A stretch of DNA of 64,000 nucleotides from Solilutibacter pythonis. Its GTDB lineage: Bacteria > Pseudomonadota > Gammaproteobacteria > Xanthomonadales > Xanthomonadaceae. The notes under the pieces are model-generated. The model was not told where the DNA came from and searched no databases. It saw only the letters and a list, made by a program, of their open reading frames with translations. The DNA lies in contig NZ_RFLY01000010.1 in NCBI RefSeq assembly GCF_003697345.1, positions 40,070-104,069 on the forward strand, read 5' to 3'. Position numbers and translations under genes: made by a program. This document shows, piece by piece, positions 1,858 through 38,327 of the stretch (position 1 is its first letter; each line of letters begins with the position of its first letter).

Positions 1858-2679
1858 TTAAGGGATGGGGTCAACCACCTTGATGCTGGCGCGCACTTCG
1901 ACTCGCCGGTCCGGCGCAAGGCACTTGACCTTTGCCGGGCGCGGCAGATTATCGCTGCAACTGGCCACCGGATTACCCGCACCGATACCGATGGCGCGAA
2001 TCCGCACCGACGGCACGCCTTCCGAAATCAACAGGCTTCGCACCGACTCCGCGCGCGCCTGGGCAAGCGCCAGGTTCGATGCCGAGCTGCCGATGCGATC
2101 GGCATAGGCCAGCACCTCCACGCTCTCGGTATCCGGCCCCGCCAGGCGGCGGGCCAGTTCCACCAGGCGACGACGCCCCTCCGGGTTGATGTCCTCCACC
2201 GCCGAACGACCGAAGCCGAATAAAGCGTCGTCCTCCAGCATCTTGCGTCCGCCTGCCGCCACGGCACCGGCCAGTGCGGGTGCGACCGCCAGCATTTCGG
2301 CGCAACCGGCGGGTTGCCAGTGGAAACTGCGCCCCCGGTACTGGCTGTCGAAGATCACTTTGTATTGGCAGGTGCGCACCTGCCCGCCATCGCGGAAGTT
2401 GAACAGATAGTCCCACTCGCGCACCTTGCCAAAGCCTTCGCGGAAATGCGGCCGCCCCAGCAGGTCGTAGAGCTGATCCTTGGTAACGCCGGATTCCACC
2501 AGCCGCAGGTTGTCCAGGTTGGGAAAGGTGCCGCCCGCCAGGGTGGCCCTGGCCGGATCGGGGAAACGCACCTCCCCGGCCACGCCTTCGGGTGAGATGT
2601 CGCGGCTGACGTGGGTCGTGCAACCGGCCATGACGGCTGCGGCGATGGCGGCCAACGGGATATTGATTTTCGTCTTCAT
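1858..2679 (-). CDS. OmpA-family lipoprotein with N-terminal BamE/SmpA-OmlA-like domain
   Basis: Internal start MKTKINIPLAAIAAAVMAGC carries a lipobox. The VTKDQLYDLLGRPHF motif is BamE-like. The C-terminus has an OmpA_C peptidoglycan-binding signature (…NLALAQARAESVRSLL…RRVEV…). The gene lies 23 bp downstream of the adhesin gene. Confidence 0.8.
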   Translation of the reverse strand: MKTKINIPLAAIAAAVMAGCTTHVSRDISPEGVAGEVRFPDPARATLAGGTFPNLDNLRLVESGVTKDQLYDLLGRPHFREGFGKVREWDYLFNFRDGGQVRTCQYKVIFDSQYRGRSFHWQPAGCAEMLAVAPALAGAVAAGGRKMLEDDALFGFGRSAVEDINPEGRRRLVELARRLAGPDTESVEVLAYADRIGSSASNLALAQARAESVRSLLISEGVPSVRIRAIGIGAGNPVASCSDNLPRPAKVKCLAPDRRVEVRASIKVVDPIP

Positions 2680-2702
2680 GTCTCTGCTCCTGTTTCCACG
2701 GC

Positions 2703-5700
2703 TCACCACTGCACGCCCATGCCAGCGGAGAAGCCCCAATCTTTCGCGGTATTGCCGCTGGCCTGCGCCTTGTAGACCCAGGTGCCGTTCTCACTGATGC
2801 CGGAGAGGCCAACGGCGATACCGTACTGGCCCTGATAGCCGCCAACGCCCGCCGAAAGCATGCTCTTGCCCGGCAGATACGCCTGCGGAAGACCCGCCAT
2901 CGCCATCGCCGAGGCGGTGGCGCCACGGAAATCGCGCCGCAATGTCCATACGTCGTTGCTCAGGTCGTTGAAGCGCTGGTCGGTATACGCATTGGCCTTG
3001 TTCAGGGTGTCGCTCAAGCCGGCTTTCAACTGGCCGACATTGACCGCATCGGTGGGGGCTACGCCGGCGGCGACATTGCGCACTAGGGTGGGCCCGGTAC
3101 CGCCCGGGTTCAACGTCATGCTGTTGTAGTTCACGCTGCCATCGGGGTTCTTGTCGTACTGCACGCCACCGGCGGCATAACCCTTCAACTGGTTGAGGTT
3201 GACCGCATCGGTACCGTTGACGCCCGGCGCCACGTTGGTGATACGACGCTCCGCACCGATGCCGCCGACCGACACCACGTTGTCCTCGACCGCGGTGGAG
3301 CCGGCGCCGATCGCGATACTGCTGCTGCCGGTGGCCCGCGCGCCCTGGCCGATGGCCGTGCTGTTGGCGCCATCGGCCACCGACTGATTACCGACCGCGG
3401 TGCTGTTATTGCCGCTGGCCACCGCGTCGCTGCCGCCCGCCGCCGAGTTGGCGCCCGTCGGGGCCGGCGCCTTGCCGCCGGGCTGGTTCACTTGGAACAT
3501 GCCGGCCGCGCCGTTCTGGATGGCCGCGATGTTGACCTCACTGGCATCCACGCGGTTGGCGAGATTGTTGATGTTGGACGTCACGCCATCCACGCGCCCG
3601 GAAAGATCGGTGACACGGCCGTCCACCGCTTCCACCGCCCGATGGGCGGCATGCAGCTGGCTGCCGTTGACCGCATCGGTGCTGTCGGCGCTGATGCGAC
3701 CGGCCGCCACGTTGACCAGGACACGCTCCATCCCCACCGCGCCGATGCTGAGCACCGCATGTGGATTGGCGCCGGCATAGCGGTAGTCCACCCCGGCAAT
3801 GGTGCCGCTCGGTGTGGCGACGGCATCGGTGGTGCGCGCGCCGTTGCCCAGCGCGATCGAGCCATCATGTGAAGCCAACGCATCCTTGCCGATGGCGATC
3901 GCATCGGTTCCGGTCGCGCCATCATTGTCATAATTGCCGCCGCCAATGGAGTTGACGCCGTAGTAATGCGTCTTGACCTCCATCGAGGCGGCGTTGAGCT
4001 GGGCCAGGTTCACCGCATCGGTCGGATTGATGCCCGTGCCGACATGGGTGATCGGCTGGCCGCCGGCATCGATCCCAGCCACGGTGAGGCTCGGGCCACC
4101 GGCGATGGTCAGGCCGTTGGCATTCAACAGCGTCCCGCCCGTGGTCAGGCTGTCGACGCTCAGATTGCGATTGAGCGCGACCTCCACCTTGCCCTCCTGA
4201 TCCGCGCCCGTCTGGCGGATGGTCACGTTCTCGTCCCCGGTGAACGTGACCCGGCCATCCGGCGTGATGCGCGCTTGATTGCCGTTGGCATCCAGCACCG
4301 TCCAACCGGCATTGACCAGGTTGCCGACGGCGTTCAACTGGCTCATGTTGACCGCGTCGGTGGGGTTCACGCCGGCGCCGACATTGGCAATCGGCATGCC
4401 GCCGGCATCGATACCGGACACGGTGATGCTCGGCCCACCGGCCACGGCAAGGCCGTTGGCATCCAGCGTGGTGCTGTTGGCGCCATCGCTCATCTCCACG
4501 CGCGCCGCGCCATAGCGGGCCACTTTGCCAGCACCGTCATCAACGCTCAGGCCGTTGGTATCCATCACGGTGTTGCCAGTGGTGATGCTGGTCAGCGTCA
4601 GGTCGGAGTTGAGACCGAAGGTCACGTTGTTGTCAGCCGCCGACTTCGTCACCTTGAGATTGCCATCGGTGCTCGACAGATCCACCGTCGCACCCGGCGC
4701 CACGTTGCTGCCGTCGGCTCCCTGCGCCGTCAGGCGCCAGCCCGCGGAGGCCGTCGCGCTCACCGCGCCGATCGCTTCGCTCACGTTGTCGTAGGTCTTG
4801 CCGCCAACGTTCAATACCGCCGTCACCGTGCCGGTGGCCGGGTCGTAAGTGGAGCCGCCGCCCAGCGCCGTGGCCGTCGTGTCACCCAGCTTCTGTACGG
4901 TCTGGTTGGTTTGGTAAAGCTGGCTACCGTTGACCGCATCGGTACTCGCGCTCGACAGCGCGCCCGCCGTCACCCCGGTGATCTTGCCGCCGCCATCGAC
5001 GTTGATGGTGACGCCGCCGAACTTCGGCGCATCCGCCATCTGGAGGTTGATCGCACCCGTCGTCGGATCGGTCACTGTCTTGAGGTTGCCGCCGCTGTAG
5101 CTCCCCGCCGTCGCCGCTTCTCCCTTGATCGCCAGCGTCTGTCCAAGGTCGCGATGCACTTCACCGGCACCGTTGTCGTTGCCGGTGAACTTCATGCCCT
5201 TGCTGGTCATGTCGCTCTTGGCCGTCTCCAACTGCGACAGGTTCACCGCGTCGTTGGCCGAGGTGCCGTTGGCCACGTTGTGGATTTGTGTCGCCGTGCC
5301 TCCTTTGTTCAGCGTGACGCTGTTGGAGTTGACCGTGCCATCCGCATTGAGGTCGTACTGCACCGCGCGATTGCCCAGCGCGCTCACCGCCTGGTTCGTC
5401 GCATGCAACTGGCTGCCGTTGACCGCCTGATTGCTGGTCGCGCTCACCTCGCCCGCCGCCACGTTGTGAATCGTCGTCGCCGCCGCCCCTGGATTCATCG
5501 TGACGCGGGCATAGTCCACCTCGCCCGGGTCCACCTCGCCATTGCCGTTGGTGTCGGTCCAGTCGTACTTCACCGCACGCTCGTTCGCCGCGCTGGCCGT
5601 AGCCGCCACGGTATTGAGCTGCGACAAGTTCACCGCATCGGTGGCGGAAACGCCGTTGGCCACGTTGCCGATGATTTTGTTGCCGGCGTCGATGCCGGCC

Positions 5701-8700
5701 GTGGTCACACTGGGGCCACCGGCAATGGTCAATCCATTGCTGTTGACGGTAGTGCCTCCATTGGTCAAGCCATTGGTATCGATCCGCGTGTTGCCGGCGG
5801 TCACACTGGTGATAGTCAGGTCGGGGTTCAGGCCGAAGGTCACGTTGTTGTCAGTCGCCGACTTCGTCACCTTGAGATTGCCATCGGTGCTCGACAGATC
5901 CACCGTCGCGCCCGGGGCCACGTTGCTGCCGTTGGCCCCCTGCGCGGTCAGGTTCCAGCCCGCGGAGGCCGTCGCGTTCACCGCGCCAATCGCGTCGTTC
6001 ACGCTGTTGTAGGTCTTACCACCCACGTTCAGCACCGTGGTCACCGTGCCGTCGGCATTCGCGGTCGAGTTGCCGCCCATGCCACTGGCCAGACTGCTAG
6101 CTACGTTGTTCACCGATTGGTTGGTCGTATACAACTGACTGCCGTTGACCGCATCGGTGCTGGCAGCCGACAGCGTGCCCGCCGCCACGCCGGTGATGGT
6201 ATTGCCGCCGTTGTCGAGACCCACGTTCGTCAAACTCACCGGGCCCTTCGGGCCACCACTGACCGTTACGCCGCCGTTGTTCAGCACCGTGTTGCCGGCG
6301 GTCACACTGGTGATAGTCAGGTCGGACGTGGTTGCGATCGTCAGTTTGTTCGGGTCGGTGCCGTCGCGCGTCACGGCAATGTTGTTGCCTTGCTGCACAG
6401 TCACCGTGCCACCCGAAGCGACATTGCTCGCCGCATCGCCGTTGGCACTGAGATTCCAGCCTGCGGAGGCCGTCGCGTTCACCGCATCGACCGCCTCGTT
6501 CACGCTGTTGTAAGTCTTGCCGCCAACGTTCAATATCGCCGTCACCGCGCCGGTGGCGGGATCATAAGTGGAACCGCCACCCAACGCCTTGACCGTTGTA
6601 TTGCCCAGGTTTTGCACCGTTTGGTTGGTCTGGTACAACTGGCTGCCGTTGACCGCATCGGTACTCGCGCTCGACAGCGTGCCCGCCGTCACGCCGGTGA
6701 TCTTGCCGCCGCCATCGACGTTGATGGTGACGCCGCCGAACTTCGGCGCATCCGCCATCTGGAGGTTGATCGCACCCGTCGTCGGATCGGTCACTGTCTT
6801 GAGGTTGCCGCCGCTGTAATTGCCGGCCGAGCTCGCCCCGCCCTGGATCGCCAGCGTCTCGCCCAGGTTGCGGTGCACGTCGCCGGCGGTCTTGTCGTTG
6901 CCGGTGAACTTCATACCCTTGCTGGTCATGTCGCTCTTGGCCGTCTCCAACTGCGACAGATTCACCGCGTCGTTGGCCGAGGTGCCGTTGGCCACGTTGC
7001 CTATCCGCGTACCCGTTCCTGCCGAACCAAGCGTGATGCTGCCGCGGTTGACCGTTCCGTCCGTATTGACGTCGTACTGCACCGCGCGATTGCCCAGCGC
7101 GCTCACCGCCTGGTTCGTCGCAAACAGCTGGCTGCCGTTCACCGCATCCGTGCTGCTGGCGCTCACCTGCCCCGCCGCCACGTTGACGATCTGTCGCTCC
7201 TTGCCCGCCGCGCCCACGCTCACCACGCCATTGGCCGCCGAACCGACGCCGGCGTAGTTGTAGGTCACGCCATTGATGCTGGTGCTACTCACCGCCGTGG
7301 CCGCGCGGTCGGCGCTAGCATTACCCAATACCACGCTGTTGGCCTGCGTGGCGGTTACGCCATTGCCCACCACGAAGGTGTTGTCCTGCGCGATGGTGTT
7401 GTTGTTGCCAAGTGCATAACTTCCGCTGCCCTTGACGGTATTCGGGTCACCAATAGCGCCGGAGTTAGCGCCACTAACCTGATTGCCAGTACCGATAGCG
7501 ATAGTGTTCCCGGCAATGGCTTGCGCACCCTTACCGATGGCAATAGCGTTGGCCCCGGTGGTTACGCTGGAATCACCAATGGCCACACCGCTGGTAGCTC
7601 CCGCATTGACCCGAGAAGACACACCCAACGCAACGGAATTATTGGCTGCCGCATAAGCACCCCGATTCGCCGAGGTGGATGTCCCCGCCTGCGGGGTATT
7701 CGCCGCCCCTCCCATGGCAATGGCATTGATAACGTTGGGCGCAACGACAGCGCGGGCACCTACCGCGGTACTGTAATTACCCCCCTGCAACACCTGCGCA
7801 TTGGCGCCGATGGCGGTACCAGAATCCACGGAACCATAACTTATCGCACCCAATGCCGTTCGGCCGACAGCGCTACTAAAACCAACGGCCGATGAATTTT
7901 TCGACCCGACACCAATCACTATACCGGCCCCCACCCCCATGCTTTGCGTACCTTGAACATTTGCCAGATCACCAATCGCGATCGTCCTGAAATCAGCCTC
8001 ACTCGGCACTACGACACCTGATTTTCCTGACACAGATCCCGACCCAATGGCTATGCCATTGATAGCATATACGCGAGCCCCTGAGTTCATATCATTCAGC
8101 AATTCATCCCCACCTTCATTATTTACATGACGACGCGAGCCAATGGCAATACCGCCAGCCGCACTCGCACTTGCGTTTGCGCCCGAACCCAGCGCAATAC
8201 TATTTCCAGCCTCCGCCTTAGCATTAATACCCGAATTGTCTCGCGCACCAATCGCAATGGATTTTTCGCCTCCTGCACTGGCCCCGTAACCCATCGAAAT
8301 AGATCGAGCACCGGAACTCCCTGCGCTCGAACCAACCGCAATGGCATCAACACCAGACGCACCATCGTTATCGTAGTTGCTACCCACTCCGGTTACGGAA
8401 GAGCGAACACTGTAGTAGTGCATCTGCCCAGACCCAAGTGTGTTGGCAACGGCATATAGTTGAGAACCATTGACGGCATCGGTACTGGCGGCGGTGAGCG
8501 CGCCGGCGGCCACGTTCTTCACCTGACGCTCGTAACCGGCAGCGCCCACCGAAACCTGCATGCCGGAATCACCCACGGTACCCGCGAAACCAGTGAAAGT
8601 ACGCCCACCAATGACCGCGGTATCGATATCGGCGGCATCGGTACCGGTGGTGGCGCCGGTACCCAGCGCCACCGAACCGGTCTTGCTGGCAATGGCCGAG

Positions 8701-9437
8701 CCGCCCAACGCCAGCGCCCCGGTACCGGTGGCGAAGGAATTGAACCCGAGCACGGTGGAAAAATCCCCCTGCGCCTGGGATTGCGCGCCAACCGCGAGCG
8801 ATGCCTGGCCGGTGGCGCTGGTGCCGTAATAAATACCGTTCTTATCCGCCGCCATGAGGTTGCGGTAGGTGTCGTTGGCCCGAGCACCGGTCAAGCCGAA
8901 ATAAGGCTCCAGTGTGCTATTGGTGATCTCCGCGATCTTGCGCGCATCGACCGTATCGTCGCTACCGATGGCAATACCGGAGTTGCCGGTGACAACGACA
9001 TTGTTGCCCACGGCCACCGATTGGGAAACGGTAACGTAGTTTACCGAACCGATCACGGTGACTTGTTCAAGCGGGTCACCGGTCGTACCAACGTACGAAC
9101 CCTGATAGCAGACGCCACTCCTGCGAACCGTGGAAGTGGCCAGCGGGGTGGATCCATGCCAGTTGCAGTCGTCGCCCACATCGCTGCTTTTCTCTTTCAG
9201 CAACGGGATACTGGACACTGGCGTGACCGTCTGCGCCCAAGCGACACCGCCACCGGCCAGCCCACAGAAAAGAAGTAGGGCGGGCACCATCGCCCGGCAG
9301 AGAGGCGTCATCAGTGTCAGACATTGACGCTTCTCAACCACTGCGCCAGAGCCTCCCATATGCCCCGTCGCCAGTTCGGAGGCGACGACCATCGCGCCTA
9401 ATTCACGGCTCCATACGAGACGATATATCTTGTTCAC
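2703..9437 (-). CDS. trimeric autotransporter adhesin (YadA/Hia-like), 2244 aa
   Basis: The N-terminus has the extended signal peptide region MNKIYRLVWSRELGAMVVASELA. The passenger has many Ylhead/neck/stalk repeats (SVALG, NSTAVG, DAVNGSQLY, AVNLSQL). The C-terminal YadA membrane anchor ends ...YKAQASGNTAKDWGFSAGMGVQW. Confidence 0.9.
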   Translation of the reverse strand: MNKIYRLVWSRELGAMVVASELATGHMGGSGAVVEKRQCLTLMTPLCRAMVPALLLFCGLAGGGVAWAQTVTPVSSIPLLKEKSSDVGDDCNWHGSTPLATSTVRRSGVCYQGSYVGTTGDPLEQVTVIGSVNYVTVSQSVAVGNNVVVTGNSGIAIGSDDTVDARKIAEITNSTLEPYFGLTGARANDTYRNLMAADKNGIYYGTSATGQASLAVGAQSQAQGDFSTVLGFNSFATGTGALALGGSAIASKTGSVALGTGATTGTDAADIDTAVIGGRTFTGFAGTVGDSGMQVSVGAAGYERQVKNVAAGALTAASTDAVNGSQLYAVANTLGSGQMHYYSVRSSVTGVGSNYDNDGASGVDAIAVGSSAGSSGARSISMGYGASAGGEKSIAIGARDNSGINAKAEAGNSIALGSGANASASAAGGIAIGSRRHVNNEGGDELLNDMNSGARVYAINGIAIGSGSVSGKSGVVVPSEADFRTIAIGDLANVQGTQSMGVGAGIVIGVGSKNSSAVGFSSAVGRTALGAISYGSVDSGTAIGANAQVLQGGNYSTAVGARAVVAPNVINAIAMGGAANTPQAGTSTSANRGAYAAANNSVALGVSSRVNAGATSGVAIGDSSVTTGANAIAIGKGAQAIAGNTIAIGTGNQVSGANSGAIGDPNTVKGSGSYALGNNNTIAQDNTFVVGNGVTATQANSVVLGNASADRAATAVSSTSINGVTYNYAGVGSAANGVVSVGAAGKERQIVNVAAGQVSASSTDAVNGSQLFATNQAVSALGNRAVQYDVNTDGTVNRGSITLGSAGTGTRIGNVANGTSANDAVNLSQLETAKSDMTSKGMKFTGNDKTAGDVHRNLGETLAIQGGASSAGNYSGGNLKTVTDPTTGAINLQMADAPKFGGVTINVDGGGKITGVTAGTLSSASTDAVNGSQLYQTNQTVQNLGNTTVKALGGGSTYDPATGAVTAILNVGGKTYNSVNEAVDAVNATASAGWNLSANGDAASNVASGGTVTVQQGNNIAVTRDGTDPNKLTIATTSDLTITSVTAGNTVLNNGGVTVSGGPKGPVSLTNVGLDNGGNTITGVAAGTLSAASTDAVNGSQLYTTNQSVNNVASSLASGMGGNSTANADGTVTTVLNVGGKTYNSVNDAIGAVNATASAGWNLTAQGANGSNVAPGATVDLSSTDGNLKVTKSATDNNVTFGLNPDLTITSVTAGNTRIDTNGLTNGGTTVNSNGLTIAGGPSVTTAGIDAGNKIIGNVANGVSATDAVNLSQLNTVAATASAANERAVKYDWTDTNGNGEVDPGEVDYARVTMNPGAAATTIHNVAAGEVSATSNQAVNGSQLHATNQAVSALGNRAVQYDLNADGTVNSNSVTLNKGGTATQIHNVANGTSANDAVNLSQLETAKSDMTSKGMKFTGNDNGAGEVHRDLGQTLAIKGEAATAGSYSGGNLKTVTDPTTGAINLQMADAPKFGGVTINVDGGGKITGVTAGALSSASTDAVNGSQLYQTNQTVQKLGDTTATALGGGSTYDPATGTVTAVLNVGGKTYDNVSEAIGAVSATASAGWRLTAQGADGSNVAPGATVDLSSTDGNLKVTKSAADNNVTFGLNSDLTLTSITTGNTVMDTNGLSVDDGAGKVARYGAARVEMSDGANSTTLDANGLAVAGGPSITVSGIDAGGMPIANVGAGVNPTDAVNMSQLNAVGNLVNAGWTVLDANGNQARITPDGRVTFTGDENVTIRQTGADQEGKVEVALNRNLSVDSLTTGGTLLNANGLTIAGGPSLTVAGIDAGGQPITHVGTGINPTDAVNLAQLNAASMEVKTHYYGVNSIGGGNYDNDGATGTDAIAIGKDALASHDGSIALGNGARTTDAVATPSGTIAGVDYRYAGANPHAVLSIGAVGMERVLVNVAAGRISADSTDAVNGSQLHAAHRAVEAVDGRVTDLSGRVDGVTSNINNLANRVDASEVNIAAIQNGAAGMFQVNQPGGKAPAPTGANSAAGGSDAVASGNNSTAVGNQSVADGANSTAIGQGARATGSSSIAIGAGSTAVEDNVVSVGGIGAERRITNVAPGVNGTDAVNLNQLKGYAAGGVQYDKNPDGSVNYNSMTLNPGGTGPTLVRNVAAGVAPTDAVNVGQLKAGLSDTLNKANAYTDQRFNDLSNDVWTLRRDFRGATASAMAMAGLPQAYLPGKSMLSAGVGGYQGQYGIAVGLSGISENGTWVYKAQASGNTAKDWGFSAGMGVQW

Positions 9438-9454
9438 GGCAAATCTCCAGGTAA

Positions 9455-9560
9455 TGAAGTTAACGAATACGAGGGGAAGAGCGTCAAAGTAAAAATATGA
9501 CGCAATTTTTATTCAAGAAAAATTGAAGCAACCATCATGCCAACACCGTGACGGATGCCA
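9455..9560. promoter_or_regulatory. AT-rich putative promoter/regulatory region upstream of the adhesin gene (divergent from rpsB)
   Basis: A locally AT-rich tract (…gtcaaagtaaaaatatgacgcaatttttattcaagaaaaattgaagc…) in an otherwise ~70% GC window, immediately 5' of the adhesin start codon. Confidence 0.3.
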
Positions 9561-9881
9561 CAATTGATATGCCAACCCTCTCAGTTGCTGAACAAAATTT
9601 GAACATGTCGGCGCTCAATCCGTCCGCTGCCCACCGACCGCCATCGCCGTGTTAAATTGCCCGCCCCTGCCACGGCAGGCCGTCCACACCGCACGTCAGC
9701 GGTGAATACACACCTGCTGTTGCAACCCATGCCGGGGTGTCCTGTCACCATCCATCGATGGCCGCCGGGATCTGTCATGGAGGCCGCAGGGAGGCCCAAC
9801 CCCGGAACCACGCCCCTACCCGGGCGTCCGCCGTCCATTTCTTCCCGGCGGAGGTTCCATCACCTCTAAGGAAACCTAGCA

Positions 9882-10709
<828 letters not shown>

Positions 10710-33044: not shown

Positions 33045-36000
33045 ATGACCGATTTCCCCGCCGAACACGCGCCAACCCCCACCGTCGATCAGGCCGTCGC
33101 CGAGGGCGGCGCCTACGAGGTGCTGAAAAAACGCCTCGAAACCCAGGGCGAACGCCTGCGGCAGACCGCGGAAACGCTCAACCAGGAGCGTCTGGCCGAG
33201 TTCGGTGACAGCCGCATGGCGCTAGCCGGGCGCTTCCGCATCCGCAGCGAGAACAACTGCGTGGGCCGCGACATCGTGCAGGTCGGCGACCTGCTGCTGT
33301 TCGGCTTCAACGTCTTCATCGGCCTCAAGACCGCCACCACGCTGCACGACGTTTTCGGCCTCTACCGGCTGGTGGACACCGACCAGGGCCACGACGTCGA
33401 ACCGGTGGATTTCGCCGGCACCTTCCTCTCCGAGCCGACCTTCGTCCGCGATTTCGACGAGTTGTACGCCTACTACAAACACGCCCGCCTGCTGCAACTG
33501 GTGGTGCGCGAAGGCAAGCTCCTGGCCGCCTTCCAGATCGGCGAGCGCAGCACCGACATGCGGGTGTTCCGCTGGTCGATCGCCGCCAGCGGCGAGGTGA
33601 GCTACATCGACGCGCGCGGCGAGCGCGACATCGCCCTGCCCGCGCCGTTCGATTTCGAGTGGCGGCGCGCCGGCCGCGAGATGGAGGTCAGCGGGCGCTT
33701 CCCGCACCTCAACATCCTCGACACGCTGTTCGTCGACACCACCGGCGGCGACCTCACCATCAAGATCGAGAACAACACCGAAACCGGCAAGGGCATCTTC
33801 GCCGAGCCGGTGGAGGACACCACCCAATCGATCGACGACGCCCGCATCGAGTTCGCCCACGTCGGCTCGCTGATCCTGCTGAAGGTGCTGCCATACCGCG
33901 AAAGCGAATGGCGCGGGCTGGTCTACAACACCCTGACCCGCAAGGTGACGCGCATCGACGCCATCGTGCAAGCCTGCGTACAGTTGCCCGAAGACCACGG
34001 CATCATCTTCCCCGGCGGCTCCTACCTGCAAAACGGCGAATACAAGGCGTTCGACGCCACCATGCGCGGCATGCAGTTCAAGCGCGCGATCCGCTCGCCC
34101 AACGGCGAGGACGTGCTCTATGTCTTCTACGAACGCGAAAGCGGACTGGCCGCGCTGTTCGTCTACAACCTGATCCAGCGCGGCCTGCAAAACCCGGTCT
34201 TCGCCCACGGCTACGCGCGGCTGCCCGATGGCCGCATGGTGCTGTTCCACGCCGAGAACAACGAGCCGACCCGCGTCCACCAGATGCAGCTCTGGCTGAC
34301 GCCCTTCGCCAGCGACGAATACGCCGCCGCCACGCCCCCCGGCAACAGCTTCATGGGCCGGCTCGGCAATGCCGAACTGGTGCGCGGCATCTCCAACCTC
34401 TACGACCTGGCCCGCGCCATCGATGCCCCCGAGGTCTCCGCCCAGCGCTACCTGCTGCTGACCGAACAGACCCGGCGGCTGTTCGACCAACACCACTGGA
34501 TCGACGACACTCACTGCCACGGCCTGTCCAGCCTGCTGCACGAGATCAGCGCGACCGGCGAATCGGTGCTGGACGAATTCGAGAAAGTCGAATCGATCCG
34601 CGCCCAGTCCGATGCGGCGATGAGCGAAGCGCACGCCGAACAGCGCCGGCTGCTGGGCCGCTTGCAGCCGGACTCGTGGAGCCGCGTCGAGGAATTCGTC
34701 GAAGCGCTGAATGCGATCACCACCCAGCGCGGCCACCTGCTCACCATCCGCGAATACCGCTACATCGATACCGCCGCCATCGACCGGATGGCCGGCGAAT
34801 TGCGCGAGGCGCATGCCCGCATCGGCACGGCCACCGGCGAATTCCTCGCCGGCGACAAAGCCCTGGCCCCGCTCAACGACCGCCTCCAGCAGCTCGACGC
34901 CGCCGCGCAAAAGGCCGACACCGCGCGCCTGCTCGGCGAGGAAGTGCAGGCGATGAACGCGATGTCCACCGATCTCAACATGCTCTCCGAGCTGATGGCG
35001 AGCCTCAAGGTGGATGACGCCAACCAACGCGCCCGCGTGGTAGAGGCGATCTCCGGCCTCTATGCCCGGCTCAACCAGGCCCGCGCGCGCGCCGAACAAA
35101 AACACCGCACGCTCGGCGCCAGCGAGGCGGTCGCGCAATTCGGCGCGCAATTCGCGCTGTTCGGCCAATCCATCGCCAGCGCGCTCGGCATGGCCAACTC
35201 CCCGGAACGCGCCGACGAACAGCTCTCGCGGCTCATGGTGCAGTTGGAGGAACTGGAAGGCCAGTTCGGCGAACACGAGCAGTTTCTCGGTGACATCCTC
35301 GCCAAGCGCGAGGAATTGCTGGAAACCTTCGAGACGCACAAACAGGCCCTGCTGGACGAACGCCAACGCAAGGCGCAATCGGTGCTGGACGCCGCCAACC
35401 GCATCCTCGACGGGCTGGCCAAACGCACCGAACGCTTCGACGCCCCGGACGCGCTCAACGCCTTTTTCGCCACCGACCCGCTGGTGCTGAAGCTGCGCGA
35501 GCTATCCGAGCGCCTGCGCGAATTAAAAGACCCGGTCAAGGCCGATGACGTTGAAGCCCGGCTCAAGTCCACCCGCGACCAAGCGGTACGCGTACTGCGC
35601 GACCGCAACGACCTGTTCGAGGACGGCGGCAACGTCATCCGCATGGGCCGCCACCGTTTCAACGTCAACCCCCAGCCGCTCGACCTCACCGTGCTGCCGC
35701 GCGGCGAGCACCTCGCCGTACACCTCACCGGCACCGATTACATGCAGCCGCTTGAGGACGATGCGCTCGACGCGCTCCGCCCGTTCTGGCACGTCACGCT
35801 GGATTCGGAATCGCCCGAGGTCTATCGCGGCGAATACCTGGCCGCCGAGATCATGGCGGCGGCCCGCGCGGGCCGCGATGGCCTGGATGACGAACGCCTG
35901 CTGCAAGCCGCCGCCGCCCCGGACGAACTCGCCGCCCTGGTGCGCGAATTCGCCGCGCCACGCTACCGGGAAGGCTACGAAAAGGGCATCCACGACCACG

Positions 36001-38327
36001 ATGCCGCACGCATCCTCGGCGCCCTGCTGCCCCTTGAGCGCGGCGCGGGCACACTGATCCACCCGCCGCTGGCGCGTGCGTTGGGCGCCTTGTTCTGGCA
36101 CCACATCGGCGGCGGCCAGCAGCTCTGGCGCGAGCGCATCGTCAATGCGGCGGCGATGCGCCGATTGTTCGGCCGCGATGACGGCTTCAACGAAGCCATC
36201 GACCAGTTGGCCGGCGAAATCGCCGCATTCCTCGACGACCACGGCATCGAACACCAGACAGGCAGCACCCGCCAGAGCGCCGGCTGGCTGGCCGACGAAC
36301 TGGCCGATGGCGAAACCCACCTCGGCTTCAGCCGGCAGTCCGAACAACTCGCGCGGGCATTGACCGCACGCTTGGACAACGCCGGCTCGCTGGCCGCCTT
36401 CCGCCAATCGCTGGCCACACTGGAGAACCCGGGCGAACGCTGGCGGCTGATGCTGCACTGGCTGAACGCCCTCGCCGCGCAGGACGAACACGCCACGCTG
36501 GCGCGCTTCGCACCGGAAGCCGCCGCGCTGAAACTGATCGGCGAGAGCGTGCCCCACCGTATCCACGACGCCGCACTGGAAGCCGAGATCGACGGCCTGC
36601 TCGGGGAACACCCGCGCATCGGCGAAGGCCGGCTGCGTTTGTCCATCGACGAATTCCGCCAGCGCCTCGGCCATCATCGTGAAGCGTTCGTGCCCGCCTT
36701 CCACCGCTACCAGAAACTGCGGCAACAGGTCATCGCCGATCAACGCGAACGCCTGCGTCTGTCCGAATACCAGGCCCGCCCGCTGACGTCGTTCGTGCGC
36801 AACCGGCTGATCAACGACATCTACCTGCCGATCATCGGCGACAACCTGGCCAAGCAGATGGGCACGGCCGGCGAGTCCAAGCGCAGCGACCTGATGGGAC
36901 TGCTGATGCTGATCTCGCCGCCCGGCTACGGCAAGACCACGCTGATGGAATACGTCGCCAACCGTCTGGGCCTGGTCTTCATGAAGATCAACGGCCCGGC
37001 GCTGGGGCACGAGGTGCGCTCGCTCGACCCCGCGCAAGCGCCGGACGCCACCTCACGGCGGGAACTGGAAAAACTCAACTTGGCGCTGGAAATGGGCAAC
37101 AACGTGATGTTGTACGTCGACGACATCCAGCACACCCATCCCGAATTCCTACAGAAATTCATCTCGCTCACCGACGGCACTCGCCGCATCGAGGGCGTCT
37201 GGCGGGGTCGCACCCGTACCTACGACATGCGCGGGCGCAAGTTCGCGGTGGTGATGGCCGGCAACCCCTATACCGAATCCGGCGAAGTGTTCCGCATCCC
37301 CGACATGCTGGCCAACCGCGCCGACATCTACAACCTGGGCGACGTGCTGGACGGCATGGAGGACGCCTTCCTGTCGAGCTATGTCGAAAACAGCCTGACC
37401 TCCAACCCCGTGCTGGCCCCGCTCGCCACCCGCGACCTCAAGGACCTCCACGTACTTGTGGACAAGGCGCTGGGCAAGGAGGTTTCCACCAGCACGCTTT
37501 CCCACGCCTATGGCGCGGCCGAGATCAACGACATCACCGCCACGCTGGAAAAGCTGATCGCGGTGCGGCAGGTGATCTACCGGGTCAACCAGCAATACAT
37601 CGCCAGCGCCGCGCAGGCCGACCAATACCGCACCGAACCCCCGTTCAAGTTGCAGGGCAGCTACCGCAACATGAACAAGCTGGCCGAGAAAATCGCCCCG
37701 GTGATGAACGACGCCGAGTTGCAGCAACTCATCTCCGACCACTACCTCGGCGAATCGCAATTGCTCACCACCGGCGCGGAAGAAAACCTGCTGAAACTGG
37801 GCGAACTGCGCGGCACCCTGGATGCCGGAGAAACCGCGCGCTGGGCGCAGATCAAGGCCGACTTCCTCCGCAACAAGGCGATGGGCGCGGACGATGCCGA
37901 CATCGGCGGCCGCGTGGTGGCGCAACTGGCCGACATCGCCGGCGGGCTGCAAACGCTGAAACCCACATCGCCCGTGCAGACCGAAGCCGCGCCCTGGGCC
38001 GAACTGCTCGCCAGCCTGCACGCCATCGGCCAGCGCGGCGCATCGGACGAGGCCCGGCTCGCCGACCTGCCCGACGCGCTCGCCCGGCGCATCGACCCGC
38101 TGCTGTCCAGCGTGGCCGATGCGCAGACGCGGCAAACCCAGCTCAACGAATCCCTGCTGCGCCTGGCCGACGCCCTGCGCGAAGGGCTGCTGCGCCCGCC
38201 CACCGCCGCACGCCCCGGGAAACCGGCGCCACGCGCCAAGAACCCCGCGCTGGAAAAACTCGACCGCGAACTCGGCAAGGTGAACTTCCAACGCCACCGC
38301 CCCGCGGACAAACCCGACCCGGCATGA
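33045..38327 (+). CDS. very large (1760 aa) hypothetical protein with a single AAA+ (MoxR/dynein-related AAA_5-like) ATPase module near residue ~1290
   Basis: Walker A …LISPPGYGKTTLMEY… (nt ~36924), Walker B …VMLYVDDIQ…, and an AAA_5-like sensor …FAVVMAGNPYTESGEVFRIPDMLANRADIY…. The ~1250-aa N-terminal region and the ~300-aa Ala/Leu-rich C-terminal region have no motif I recognise. 72 bp downstream of the flotillin gene. Confidence 0.8.
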   Translation: MTDFPAEHAPTPTVDQAVAEGGAYEVLKKRLETQGERLRQTAETLNQERLAEFGDSRMALAGRFRIRSENNCVGRDIVQVGDLLLFGFNVFIGLKTATTLHDVFGLYRLVDTDQGHDVEPVDFAGTFLSEPTFVRDFDELYAYYKHARLLQLVVREGKLLAAFQIGERSTDMRVFRWSIAASGEVSYIDARGERDIALPAPFDFEWRRAGREMEVSGRFPHLNILDTLFVDTTGGDLTIKIENNTETGKGIFAEPVEDTTQSIDDARIEFAHVGSLILLKVLPYRESEWRGLVYNTLTRKVTRIDAIVQACVQLPEDHGIIFPGGSYLQNGEYKAFDATMRGMQFKRAIRSPNGEDVLYVFYERESGLAALFVYNLIQRGLQNPVFAHGYARLPDGRMVLFHAENNEPTRVHQMQLWLTPFASDEYAAATPPGNSFMGRLGNAELVRGISNLYDLARAIDAPEVSAQRYLLLTEQTRRLFDQHHWIDDTHCHGLSSLLHEISATGESVLDEFEKVESIRAQSDAAMSEAHAEQRRLLGRLQPDSWSRVEEFVEALNAITTQRGHLLTIREYRYIDTAAIDRMAGELREAHARIGTATGEFLAGDKALAPLNDRLQQLDAAAQKADTARLLGEEVQAMNAMSTDLNMLSELMASLKVDDANQRARVVEAISGLYARLNQARARAEQKHRTLGASEAVAQFGAQFALFGQSIASALGMANSPERADEQLSRLMVQLEELEGQFGEHEQFLGDILAKREELLETFETHKQALLDERQRKAQSVLDAANRILDGLAKRTERFDAPDALNAFFATDPLVLKLRELSERLRELKDPVKADDVEARLKSTRDQAVRVLRDRNDLFEDGGNVIRMGRHRFNVNPQPLDLTVLPRGEHLAVHLTGTDYMQPLEDDALDALRPFWHVTLDSESPEVYRGEYLAAEIMAAARAGRDGLDDERLLQAAAAPDELAALVREFAAPRYREGYEKGIHDHDAARILGALLPLERGAGTLIHPPLARALGALFWHHIGGGQQLWRERIVNAAAMRRLFGRDDGFNEAIDQLAGEIAAFLDDHGIEHQTGSTRQSAGWLADELADGETHLGFSRQSEQLARALTARLDNAGSLAAFRQSLATLENPGERWRLMLHWLNALAAQDEHATLARFAPEAAALKLIGESVPHRIHDAALEAEIDGLLGEHPRIGEGRLRLSIDEFRQRLGHHREAFVPAFHRYQKLRQQVIADQRERLRLSEYQARPLTSFVRNRLINDIYLPIIGDNLAKQMGTAGESKRSDLMGLLMLISPPGYGKTTLMEYVANRLGLVFMKINGPALGHEVRSLDPAQAPDATSRRELEKLNLALEMGNNVMLYVDDIQHTHPEFLQKFISLTDGTRRIEGVWRGRTRTYDMRGRKFAVVMAGNPYTESGEVFRIPDMLANRADIYNLGDVLDGMEDAFLSSYVENSLTSNPVLAPLATRDLKDLHVLVDKALGKEVSTSTLSHAYGAAEINDITATLEKLIAVRQVIYRVNQQYIASAAQADQYRTEPPFKLQGSYRNMNKLAEKIAPVMNDAELQQLISDHYLGESQLLTTGAEENLLKLGELRGTLDAGETARWAQIKADFLRNKAMGADDADIGGRVVAQLADIAGGLQTLKPTSPVQTEAAPWAELLASLHAIGQRGASDEARLADLPDALARRIDPLLSSVADAQTRQTQLNESLLRLADALREGLLRPPTAARPGKPAPRAKNPALEKLDRELGKVNFQRHRPADKPDPA

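What the first reader, a model, noticed from the sequence alone, without database searches (positions are those of the whole stretch)
4650..7150. Long near-identical direct repeats inside the adhesin gene (recombination and size-variation substrate)
Several DNA blocks of about 170-640 bp recur at ~90% or higher identity with fixed offsets. Approx. 4800-5430 matches 6521-7140 at an offset of about 1.71 kb. Approx. 4651-4820 matches 5861-6030 at an offset of about 1.21 kb. At protein level these are repeated stalk/neck modules (…LSQLETAKSDMTSKGMKFTGND…DAVNGSQLYQTNQTVQ…). Such repeats allow RecA-dependent expansion or contraction of the stalk, and therefore variation in adhesin length or antigenicity. 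They also make this locus prone to assembly collapse.
Basis: seen in the sequence. Interest (0 to 1): 0.6.

Follow-up and report, generated by a model that had tools for sequence, protein, structure and literature searches.

The report
Repeated modules inside an adhesin gene
The long direct repeats are real, in-frame duplications of building blocks in a bacterial surface-fibre (trimeric autotransporter adhesin) gene; one copy is a recombinant mosaic of two others, but such repeats are ordinary for this gene class and active size switching is not shown here.

Summary
The repeats are confirmed, with corrections. Window 4800-5430 matches +1719 bp at 86.8% (631 bp, ungapped). A third pair, at +501 bp and 74% identity, was missed. 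Background ungapped identity is 27%. "Near-identical" is overstated: the longest exact run is 125 bp.

The repeats lie in a 2244-aa trimeric autotransporter adhesin gene (2703-9437, minus strand). It is identical to a hypothetical protein of Solilutibacter (Lysobacter) pythonis. A TpgA-like lipoprotein gene follows it.

All offsets are multiples of 3 (573, 406 and 167 codons). The units are a stalk plus a roughly 90-aa beta module (A1, A2) and neck-DALL-Trp-ring-GIN units (U1-U3).

U3 is a mosaic. It resembles U1 up to window ~4795 and U2 beyond (maximum chi-square, p<5e-5). Past recombination among the repeats is therefore supported. The copies are under purifying selection (dN/dS ~0.3).

Ongoing size or antigenic variation is untested, because no second allele exists in any searched collection. 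About 13% divergence makes exchange inefficient and assembly collapse unlikely.

Of 40 TAA genes next to tpgA-like genes in other species, 26 carry internal repeats of at least 150 bp. This is an ordinary, known phenomenon (BadA, Brucella TAAs), so interest is low.

The parts
2703..9437 (-). Trimeric autotransporter adhesin gene, 2244 aa, GTG start with a GGAG ribosome-binding site upstream. It is 100% identical to NCBI EBB59_08265 (hypothetical protein, Lysobacter/Solilutibacter pythonis).
   Evidence: ORF list. Translation. Pfam ESPR, YadA_head, YadA_stalk and YadA_anchor. Identity to P0001. Upstream sequence.
6453..7184 (-). Repeat copy A1 (aa 752-995). It contains a neck/stalk, a second short stalk, a ~90-aa beta module 'KGMKFTGND...APKFGGVTIN', a neck, and the start of the DALL region.
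   Evidence: blastn pair 6456-7185 / 4737-5466 at 86.7%. Gapless codon alignment at offset 573 aa with 83.6% aa identity, dS 0.33 and dN/dS 0.30.
4734..5465 (-). Repeat copy A2 (aa 1325-1568), the partner of A1 at an offset of 1719 bp (573 codons).
6213..6740 (-). Unit U1 (aa ~900-1075): neck, short coiled coil, DALL-like connector, Trp-ring ('AGWNL') and a variant GIN region.
   Evidence: Three-way alignment. PDB matches to AtaA 3WPA/3WPR and BadA 3D9X.
5688..6236 (-). Unit U2 (aa ~1068-1250): neck, DALL, Trp-ring, GIN ('AGIDAGNK') and neck.
   Evidence: blastn pairs at offsets 1218 and 501. Alignment to AtaA 3WPA residues 36-263.
4473..5021 (-). Unit U3 (aa ~1473-1655), a mosaic copy. Its 5' (N-terminal) part is 77-98% nt identical to U1. 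Its 3' part (aa ~1555-1605) is 90-97% identical to U2.
   Evidence: Sliding-window nt identities. Maximum chi-square test.
4790..4820 (-). Inferred recombination breakpoint within U3 (best estimate codon 1548, window 4794-4796). It lies in the segment 'VNATASAGWNL', which is conserved in all three units.
   Evidence: 151 informative sites. Left of the breakpoint 54:7 are U1-like; right of it 18:72 are U2-like. Permutation p<5e-5.
4975..5099 (-). Longest perfectly identical tract, 125 bp. Its twin is at 6694-6818. It is the most plausible site for any present-day homologous exchange.
   Evidence: Local synonymous divergence is 0.04-0.08, against 0.4-0.65 elsewhere in the pair.
6694..6818 (-). 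Twin of the 125-bp identical tract, in copy A1.
2706..2888 (-). YadA-like beta-barrel membrane anchor (aa 2184-2244).
   Evidence: Pfam PF03895, E=2.7e-15
9306..9437 (-). ESPR extended signal peptide (aa 1-44).
   Evidence: Pfam PF13018, E=4.9e-13
1858..2679 (-). TpgA-like lipoprotein gene immediately downstream of the adhesin gene. It has a BamE-like domain and an OmpA-like domain. The probable start is MKTKINIPLAAIAAAVMAGC, which carries a lipobox.
   Evidence: Pfam BamE + OmpA. NCBIfam TpgA is the best hit, E=1.5e-36, but below the equivalog cut-off. Start region. The same gene pair occurs in L001 and in 40 other loci.

Best explanation
The repeats are genuine in-frame segmental duplications of passenger-domain modules inside a chromosomal trimeric autotransporter adhesin (TAA) gene of Solilutibacter pythonis.

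Two module types are repeated. The first is a stalk plus a ~90-aa beta module (A1, A2). The second is a neck-DALL-Trp-ring-GIN unit (U1, U2, U3).

The copies arose within this lineage and were later reshuffled by homologous exchange, either unequal crossing-over or gene conversion. The third unit is now a U1/U2 chimera joined in a conserved segment.

Both copies of each module are kept under purifying selection. This suggests they are working parts of the fibre that add length and probably extra binding surfaces.

The repeats remain a possible substrate for RecA-type exchange, chiefly at the 125-bp identical tract. Exchange would give in-frame products of 1671 or 2817 aa, 1838 or 2650 aa, or 2077 or 2411 aa. 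At 11-26% divergence this should be rare, so the locus is not a fast switch.

Shown: the repeats, the frame, the module identities, the mosaic and the selection regime. Inferred: the recombination mechanism, its present rate and the functional role of the copies.
For: Repeats and offsets.

TAA identity.

Frame: offsets are 573, 406 and 167 codons, and simulated recombinants keep one ORF.

Lineage-specific origin: each copy's nearest neighbour among 45 and 104 homologous modules from 62 TAAs lies in the same protein. Identity is 88.5% within versus 72.5-73.4% between proteins for A. It is 63-75% within versus 53-58% between for U.

Mosaic: U3 is 77-98% nt identical to U1 up to aa ~1548, then 90-97% identical to U2. 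Maximum chi-square is 68.4, p<5e-5.

Patchy synonymous divergence in A1/A2: pS ranges from 0.04 to 0.65, and the exact run of 125 bp has p<5e-5 in a permutation within codon positions.

Purifying selection: dN/dS is 0.30-0.41.

Generality: module copy number varies from 1-5 and from 2-10 among homologues. Of 40 tpgA-linked TAA ORFs from other species, 26 carry internal repeats of at least 150 bp.

Literature: TAA mosaic and repeat architecture, and BadA length variation by recombination (PMC2373917, PMC8859334, PMC7688925).
Against: There is no direct evidence that exchange still occurs, because only one genome of the species is available.

The strictest test for a recent conversion tract uses four-fold degenerate sites only, and it is not significant (longest run 24 sites, p=0.067).

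The order of events cannot be resolved from one sequence. The alternatives are duplication followed by a U1xU2 deletion, or gene conversion from U2 into U3.

The functional role of the extra modules is inferred from other TAAs, not tested here.
Confidence: 0.78

Rival explanations
1. This is an active size- or antigenic-variation locus. RecA-dependent unequal exchange between the repeats would frequently expand or contract the fibre within populations, giving adaptive length or antigen variants as in Bartonella BadA.
For: The repeats are in frame and contain identical tracts of 125, 54, 52, 44, 39 and 38 bp. The mosaic copy proves exchange is possible. BadA provides a precedent (PMC8859334).
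Against: The copies are 11-26% diverged. From established knowledge, homeologous recombination falls steeply at this divergence. No allele-length polymorphism can be shown, since no second allele exists. There is no nearby pseudogene or second TAA cassette to act as a 'toolbox' in the 64-kb window. No simple-sequence repeats were found. Other TAAs with 95-100% identical repeats are much better substrates.
Confidence: 0.12
2. This is a static ancient duplication. The modules were duplicated once long ago and have simply diverged. The similarity pattern would then reflect uneven protein constraint, and no recombination occurred after the duplication.
For: dS of 0.33-0.81 indicates the copies are not recent. 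dN/dS ~0.3 shows constraint. The four-fold-site run test alone is not significant (p=0.067).
Against: Constraint cannot make U3 switch its closest relative from U1 (77-98% nt) to U2 (90-97% nt, against 51-57% to U1) at one point. Nucleotide identity of 92-97% across aa 1570-1600 includes synonymous sites.
Confidence: 0.06
3. This is an assembly artefact. The repeat layout, or the mosaic, would come from mis-joining or collapse of reads in a draft short-read assembly.
For: The source is a draft contig of 107 kb. TAA genes are known to be mis-assembled: badA was reported as 9,249 bp and corrected to 11,922 bp (PMC8859334).
Against: The copies differ about every 7-8 bp, and the longest exact run is 125 bp, so ordinary paired reads resolve them. 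The U3 breakpoint region has only a 22-bp exact tract, too short to mislead an assembler. The ORF is intact and every module boundary is regular. Collapse of additional, truly identical copies cannot be excluded without reads.
Confidence: 0.03

Closest known systems
Bartonella henselae BadA (trimeric autotransporter with a repetitive neck/stalk region)
   Same: Both are TAAs with a modular passenger built of repeated connector/stalk units (FGG, coiled coil, DALL, neck). DNA-level repeats underlie domain duplication, deletion and reshuffling. The Trp-ring-GIN-neck part matches BadA head 3D9X (PMC8859334, PMC9602544).
   Different: BadA has ~30 neck/stalk domains and flanking badA pseudogenes that serve as a recombination toolbox, and strain-to-strain length variation is documented. 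Here there are only 2-3 copies at 74-89% DNA identity, no second cassette in the window, and no strain comparison is possible.
Acinetobacter AtaA/Ata with its partner TpgA
   Same: These are the best solved-structure matches (3WPA, 3WPR), and the NCBIfam auto_Ata model matches aa 896-1169. A BamE-like plus OmpA-like lipoprotein gene lies directly downstream, as tpgA does (PMC12523085). Both have a long mosaic passenger with repeated domains.
   Different: Scores fall far below the family cut-offs (Ata 377 vs 2500 bits; TpgA 126 vs 350 bits), so these are not orthologues. The head and most of the passenger differ.
Brucella TAAs (BatA/BtaE) with TrpRing-GIN-Neck repeat modules
   Same: The same tripartite TrpRing-GIN-neck unit is the repeated block, and its copy number differs between species. 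This is attributed to duplication and recombination (PMC7688925).
   Different: In BatA the unit is tandem and perfectly repeated six times. Here the three units are diverged, one is chimeric, and one is separated from the others by a different module.
Haemophilus influenzae Hia/Hsf repeated binding domains
   Same: Trp-ring-containing modules are repeated along one TAA fibre (two in Hia, three in Hsf), giving several binding sites. This is from my own knowledge. HiaBD1 (1S7M) and Hsf (5LNL) appear only among weak fold hits.
   Different: No significant sequence match was found here, and the binding function of the S. pythonis modules is unknown.

Membership tests
Trimeric autotransporter adhesin (type Vc secretion) | C-terminal YadA-like beta-barrel anchor | tested here: met
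   PF03895 at aa 2184-2244, E=2.7e-15, 56.6 bits against a cut-off of 22.7
Trimeric autotransporter adhesin (type Vc secretion) | N-terminal (extended) signal peptide | tested here: met
   PF13018 ESPR at aa 1-44, E=4.9e-13
Trimeric autotransporter adhesin (type Vc secretion) | Passenger built of head repeats, necks and coiled-coil stalks | tested here: met
   YadA_head in 7 stretches and YadA_stalk in 14 stretches. PDB matches to AtaA, BpaA, BadA, UspA1, VompD and SadA fragments.
Trimeric autotransporter adhesin (type Vc secretion) | Forms a surface-exposed homotrimer that mediates adhesion | not testable with these tools
   Requires expression, microscopy and adhesion assays
Ata/AtaA-TpgA type operon | Adhesin is an Ata orthologue (NCBIfam NF033481) | tested here: not met
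   377 bits against a cut-off of 2500. The similarity is modular only.
Ata/AtaA-TpgA type operon | Downstream periplasmic/lipoprotein partner with a BamE(SmpA/OmlA)-like N-domain and a peptidoglycan-binding OmpA-like C-domain | tested here: met
   Pfam BamE at aa 70-135 and OmpA at aa 183-263. A lipobox lies at the probable start. NF047726 TpgA is the best NCBIfam hit over its full length, E=1.5e-36, but 126 bits is below the 350-bit equivalog cut-off. It is therefore TpgA-like and not a certified equivalog.
Recombination-driven length-variable TAA (BadA-like) | Long in-frame direct DNA repeats within the passenger region | tested here: met
   Repeats of 731, 442 and 429 bp at offsets 1719, 1218 and 501, all multiples of 3
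Recombination-driven length-variable TAA (BadA-like) | Signature of exchange between repeat copies | tested here: met
   U3 is a U1/U2 mosaic, maximum chi-square p<5e-5
Recombination-driven length-variable TAA (BadA-like) | Different allele lengths or copy numbers among strains of the species | not testable with these tools
   Only one genome is available. The next-best proteins are 43-66% identical over parts only. The closest tpgA-like locus is ~50% identical. The metagenome scan gave 33-35%.
Recombination-driven length-variable TAA (BadA-like) | Highly similar (>=95%) repeat copies or a nearby donor cassette that sustain frequent exchange | tested here: not met
   Repeat copies are 74-89% identical. 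No other TAA-like sequence was found in the 64-kb window.
Simple-sequence-repeat phase-variable contingency gene | Homopolymer or short tandem repeat tract in the promoter or 5' coding region | tested here: not met
   TRF finds only one weak 24-bp, 2.5-copy array at 6678-6737. No such tract is visible upstream.

The most novel reading that the evidence does not exclude
The ~90-aa beta-rich module repeated in A1 and A2 (consensus FTGND..VHR.LG.TL.I.G...YSG.NLKTVTDP.TGAI.LQMA.SPKFG.VTIN) may be a TAA passenger domain type that is not yet structurally or family-defined. It is widespread in Lysobacterales and Burkholderiales adhesins. In addition, the repeats in this gene may still mediate in-frame length changes of 573, 406 or 167 aa within S. 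pythonis populations.
Probability: 0.2. Interest if true: 0.3.

Novelty: new member of a known kind. Interest (0 to 1): 0.15.

Why it matters
It matters little beyond annotation. The result upgrades a 'hypothetical protein' to a TAA with a TpgA-like partner. It maps the gene's module architecture and gives a clean example of a chimeric repeat copy that documents intragenic recombination. Anyone resequencing this species should check the length of this gene with long reads. It does not open a new question, because repeat-driven modular evolution of TAAs is well established.

Tried and rejected
1. Exact-protein look-ups for other contigs carrying this gene found none.

2. I searched for a second allele or close orthologue in three ways, and allele-length comparison proved impossible:
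- The protein database search gave best non-self hits of 43-66% identity over parts only.
- The species-representative genome scan with the TpgA-like protein gave at most 54%.
- The JGI metagenome scan with the head domain gave 33-35%.

3. Logan contig L001 shares only the 3' ~1.5 kb of the adhesin gene plus the tpgA-like gene, at 71% nt identity. It has a different head and a different upstream neighbour, so it is not a usable allele.

4. I tested whether the ~90-aa 'FTGND...KFGG' module is a divergent Trp-ring domain. None of these results supports it, so the question is left unresolved:
- hhalign against a Trp-ring/GIN profile gave a probability of 4%.
- A PDB profile search gave only a spurious hit.
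- Pfam found nothing.
- The AF2 monomer model has pLDDT 66 and pTM 0.32.
- The top Foldseek hits are the VompD and BadA heads, but with E>=0.3.

5. A gene-conversion test restricted to four-fold degenerate sites gave p=0.067. It is suggestive only, so the recombination claim rests on the U3 mosaic instead.

6. Simple-sequence phase variation was rejected.

7. A second TAA or donor cassette in the window was rejected.

8. The 1309-aa ORF on the opposite strand (3966-7895) has no Pfam match. It is most simply an open antisense frame of a GC3-rich gene.


Full report
**Observation**

The region lies inside one long ORF on the minus strand, window 2703-9437, 2244 aa. A self-comparison of 2000-10500 by blastn gives three direct-repeat lines and no inverted ones:
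- 4737-5466 vs 6456-7185: offset 1719, 86.7% over 731 columns.
- 4547-4982 vs 5765-6197: offset 1218, 81.2% over 442 columns.
- 5787-6197 vs 6288-6701: offset 501, 74.4% over 429 columns.

The repeat finder reports the same families.

Block 4800-5430 is 86.8% identical to the sequence 1719 bp higher. Its partner is therefore 5869-6038. Background ungapped identity at unrelated offsets averages 26.9% and peaks at 39%.

Two points need correction. The identity is 87-89% rather than '90% or higher'. The copies are not near-identical: the longest exact tract is 125 bp (4975-5099 = 6694-6818), followed by tracts of 54, 52, 44, 39 and 38 bp.

**What the gene is**

Pfam finds four elements:
- an ESPR extended signal peptide (aa 1-44);
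- 7 YadA_head stretches;
- 14 YadA_stalk stretches;
- a YadA_anchor (aa 2184-2244).

The protein is 100% identical to EBB59_08265, annotated as a 'hypothetical protein' of Lysobacter pythonis. That species is now Solilutibacter pythonis, Lysobacteraceae.

The repeated stretch matches solved fragments of several TAAs:
- AtaA (3WPA, 3WPR);
- BadA head (3D9X);
- VompD (4LGO);
- BpaA (3LA9);
- UspA1 and SadA.

A profile of the 'AGW...' part matches AtaA and the BadA Trp-ring/GIN head at E=1e-12 to 1e-13.

Directly downstream, at about 1858-2679 on the minus strand, lies a lipoprotein gene. It has a BamE-like domain and an OmpA-like domain, and its best NCBIfam match is TpgA, the AtaA-associated peptidoglycan-binding partner. 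The score is below the equivalog cut-off (PMC12523085).

Upstream are rpsB and tsf, and further along are bamA, dnaE and yhdP. The locus is therefore in core chromosome. No other TAA-like sequence is in the window.

**Anatomy of the repeats**

All offsets are multiples of three: 573, 406 and 167 codons. At protein level there are two module types.

Module A occurs as A1 (aa 752-995) and A2 (aa 1325-1568). It is gapless and 83.6% identical between the copies. It contains:
- a neck/stalk;
- a second short stalk;
- a ~90-aa beta-rich block (KGMKFTGND...APKFGGVTIN);
- a neck;
- the start of a DALL-like connector.

Module U occurs as U1 (aa ~900-1075), U2 (~1068-1250) and U3 (~1473-1655). It is a neck-DALL-Trp-ring-GIN-neck unit. 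This is the tripartite unit known to be repeated in BadA-like and Brucella TAAs (PMC7688925, PMC2373917).

The ~90-aa block of module A is unassigned. I found no Pfam family, no sequence-detectable solved homologue and no significant profile match to the Trp-ring/GIN profile. Its monomer model has low confidence, and the nearest fold hits (VompD and BadA heads) are not significant.

**Evidence on mechanism**

*The copies arose or were homogenised within this lineage.* I compared 45 A-type and 104 U-type modules from 62 homologous TAAs. Each copy's nearest neighbour lies in the same protein. For A, identity is 88.5% within versus 72.5-73.4% between proteins. For U, it is 63-75% within versus 53-58% between.

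*U3 is a mosaic.* In 20-codon windows it is 77-98% nt identical to U1 up to aa ~1548. It is then 90-97% identical to U2 and only 51-57% identical to U1 across aa ~1560-1600. A maximum chi-square test on 151 informative sites places the breakpoint at codon 1548, window 4794-4796. This lies inside the segment VNATASAGWNL, which all three units conserve. Left of the breakpoint the sites split 54:7 in favour of U1. Right of it they split 18:72 in favour of U2. The permutation p-value is below 5e-5.

Uneven protein constraint cannot explain a switch of closest relative. It is the signature of unequal crossing-over or gene conversion.

*Synonymous divergence in A1/A2 is patchy.* pS ranges from 0.04-0.08 around the 125-bp identical tract to 0.4-0.65 elsewhere. 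This is consistent with a later conversion tract. However, a test on four-fold degenerate sites alone gives only p=0.067, so I treat it as suggestive.

*Both copies are under purifying selection.* dN/dS is 0.30-0.41 and dS is 0.33-0.81. They are functional parts of the fibre and they are not recent.

*Any exchange would stay in frame.* Simulated exchange at each repeat pair yields single intact ORFs of 1671 or 2817 aa, 1838 or 2650 aa, and 2077 or 2411 aa.

**How likely is present-day variation?**

This step is inferred. From established knowledge of bacterial homologous recombination, efficient RecA-dependent exchange needs tens to hundreds of bp of near-perfect identity and drops steeply with divergence. 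RecA-independent slippage is inefficient across kilobase spacing.

With 11-26% divergence and a single 125-bp identical tract, exchange is possible but should be rare. The locus also lacks the features that make BadA highly variable, namely many near-identical domains and neighbouring pseudogene cassettes (PMC8859334). There is no simple-sequence tract either.

The direct test, comparing allele lengths among strains, could not be run because no second allele or close orthologue exists in any collection searched.

For the same reason of divergence, assembly collapse of these particular copies is unlikely. Collapse of hypothetical additional identical copies cannot be excluded without reads.

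**Is it unusual?**

No. I examined 40 TAA-like ORFs (2.3-9.9 kb) lying immediately upstream of tpgA-like genes in other species:
- 26 have at least one internal direct repeat of 150 bp or more;
- 16 have one at 85% identity or higher;
- 6 have one at 95% or higher.

At protein level several homologues carry 98-100% identical module copies, and copy numbers range from 1-5 (A-type) and 2-10 (U-type).

The literature already describes TAAs as mosaic and repeat-rich (PMC2373917). It attributes BadA and Brucella TAA length differences to recombination among such repeats (PMC8859334, PMC7688925). It also documents an earlier underestimate of badA length, 9,249 vs 11,922 bp, corrected by long reads (PMC8859334).

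**Verdict**

The adhesin identity, the repeated modules, the in-frame geometry and past recombination are supported. Ongoing RecA-dependent size or antigenic variation and assembly-collapse risk are not shown, and the divergence of the copies weakens both.

This is a new, uncharacterised member of a well-known kind, and interest is low. The only mildly novel threads are the unassigned ~90-aa beta module and the cleanly resolved chimeric repeat copy.

Noticed in passing
window 1858-2679 (-): A TpgA-like lipoprotein gene lies 24 nt downstream of the adhesin stop codon. It has a BamE-like domain and an OmpA-like domain, and a lipobox (VMAGC) at its probable start. The adhesin/tpgA-like gene pair recurs in Pseudoxanthomonas, Lysobacter, Luteimonas, Variovorax, Cupriavidus, Rhodanobacter and others.
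   Followed up: partly
window 3966-7895 (+): A 1309-aa ORF runs antisense to the adhesin gene across the whole repeat region. It has no Pfam match. It is most likely a spurious open frame of a GC3-rich gene.
   Followed up: partly
window ~7000-10000: The head-coding 5' third of the adhesin gene and its promoter region have 58-61% GC, against 64-69% in the rest of the gene and the flanks. The immediate upstream region is AT-rich. This may indicate a different origin for the head cassette.
   Followed up: no
window 6660-6950 and 4940-5230 (aa ~830-925 and 1403-1498): A ~90-aa beta-rich passenger module (FTGND...VHR.LG.TL.I.G...KTVTDP.TGAI.LQMA..PKFG.VTIN) has no Pfam family and no sequence-detectable solved structure. 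It is present in 1-5 copies in 20 of 62 homologous TAAs.
   Followed up: partly
L001 5687-7638 vs window 2300-4215: A Logan metagenome contig (SRR33674920) shares only the C-terminal ~500 codons of the adhesin plus the tpgA-like gene, at 71% nt identity. Its head and its upstream neighbour (an acid phosphatase gene rather than rpsB) are different. This suggests a conserved anchor/stalk-tpgA cassette combined with exchangeable passengers.
   Followed up: partly
window 33045-38327 (+): A 1760-aa ORF carries DUF3686 ('ATPase involved in DNA repair'), DUF7902 and AAA_5 domains. It is unrelated to the finding and its role is unknown.
   Followed up: no
window 6678-6737: A weak 24-bp-period tandem array (2.5 copies, 75% matches) overlaps the start of the 125-bp identical tract in copy A1.
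   Followed up: no
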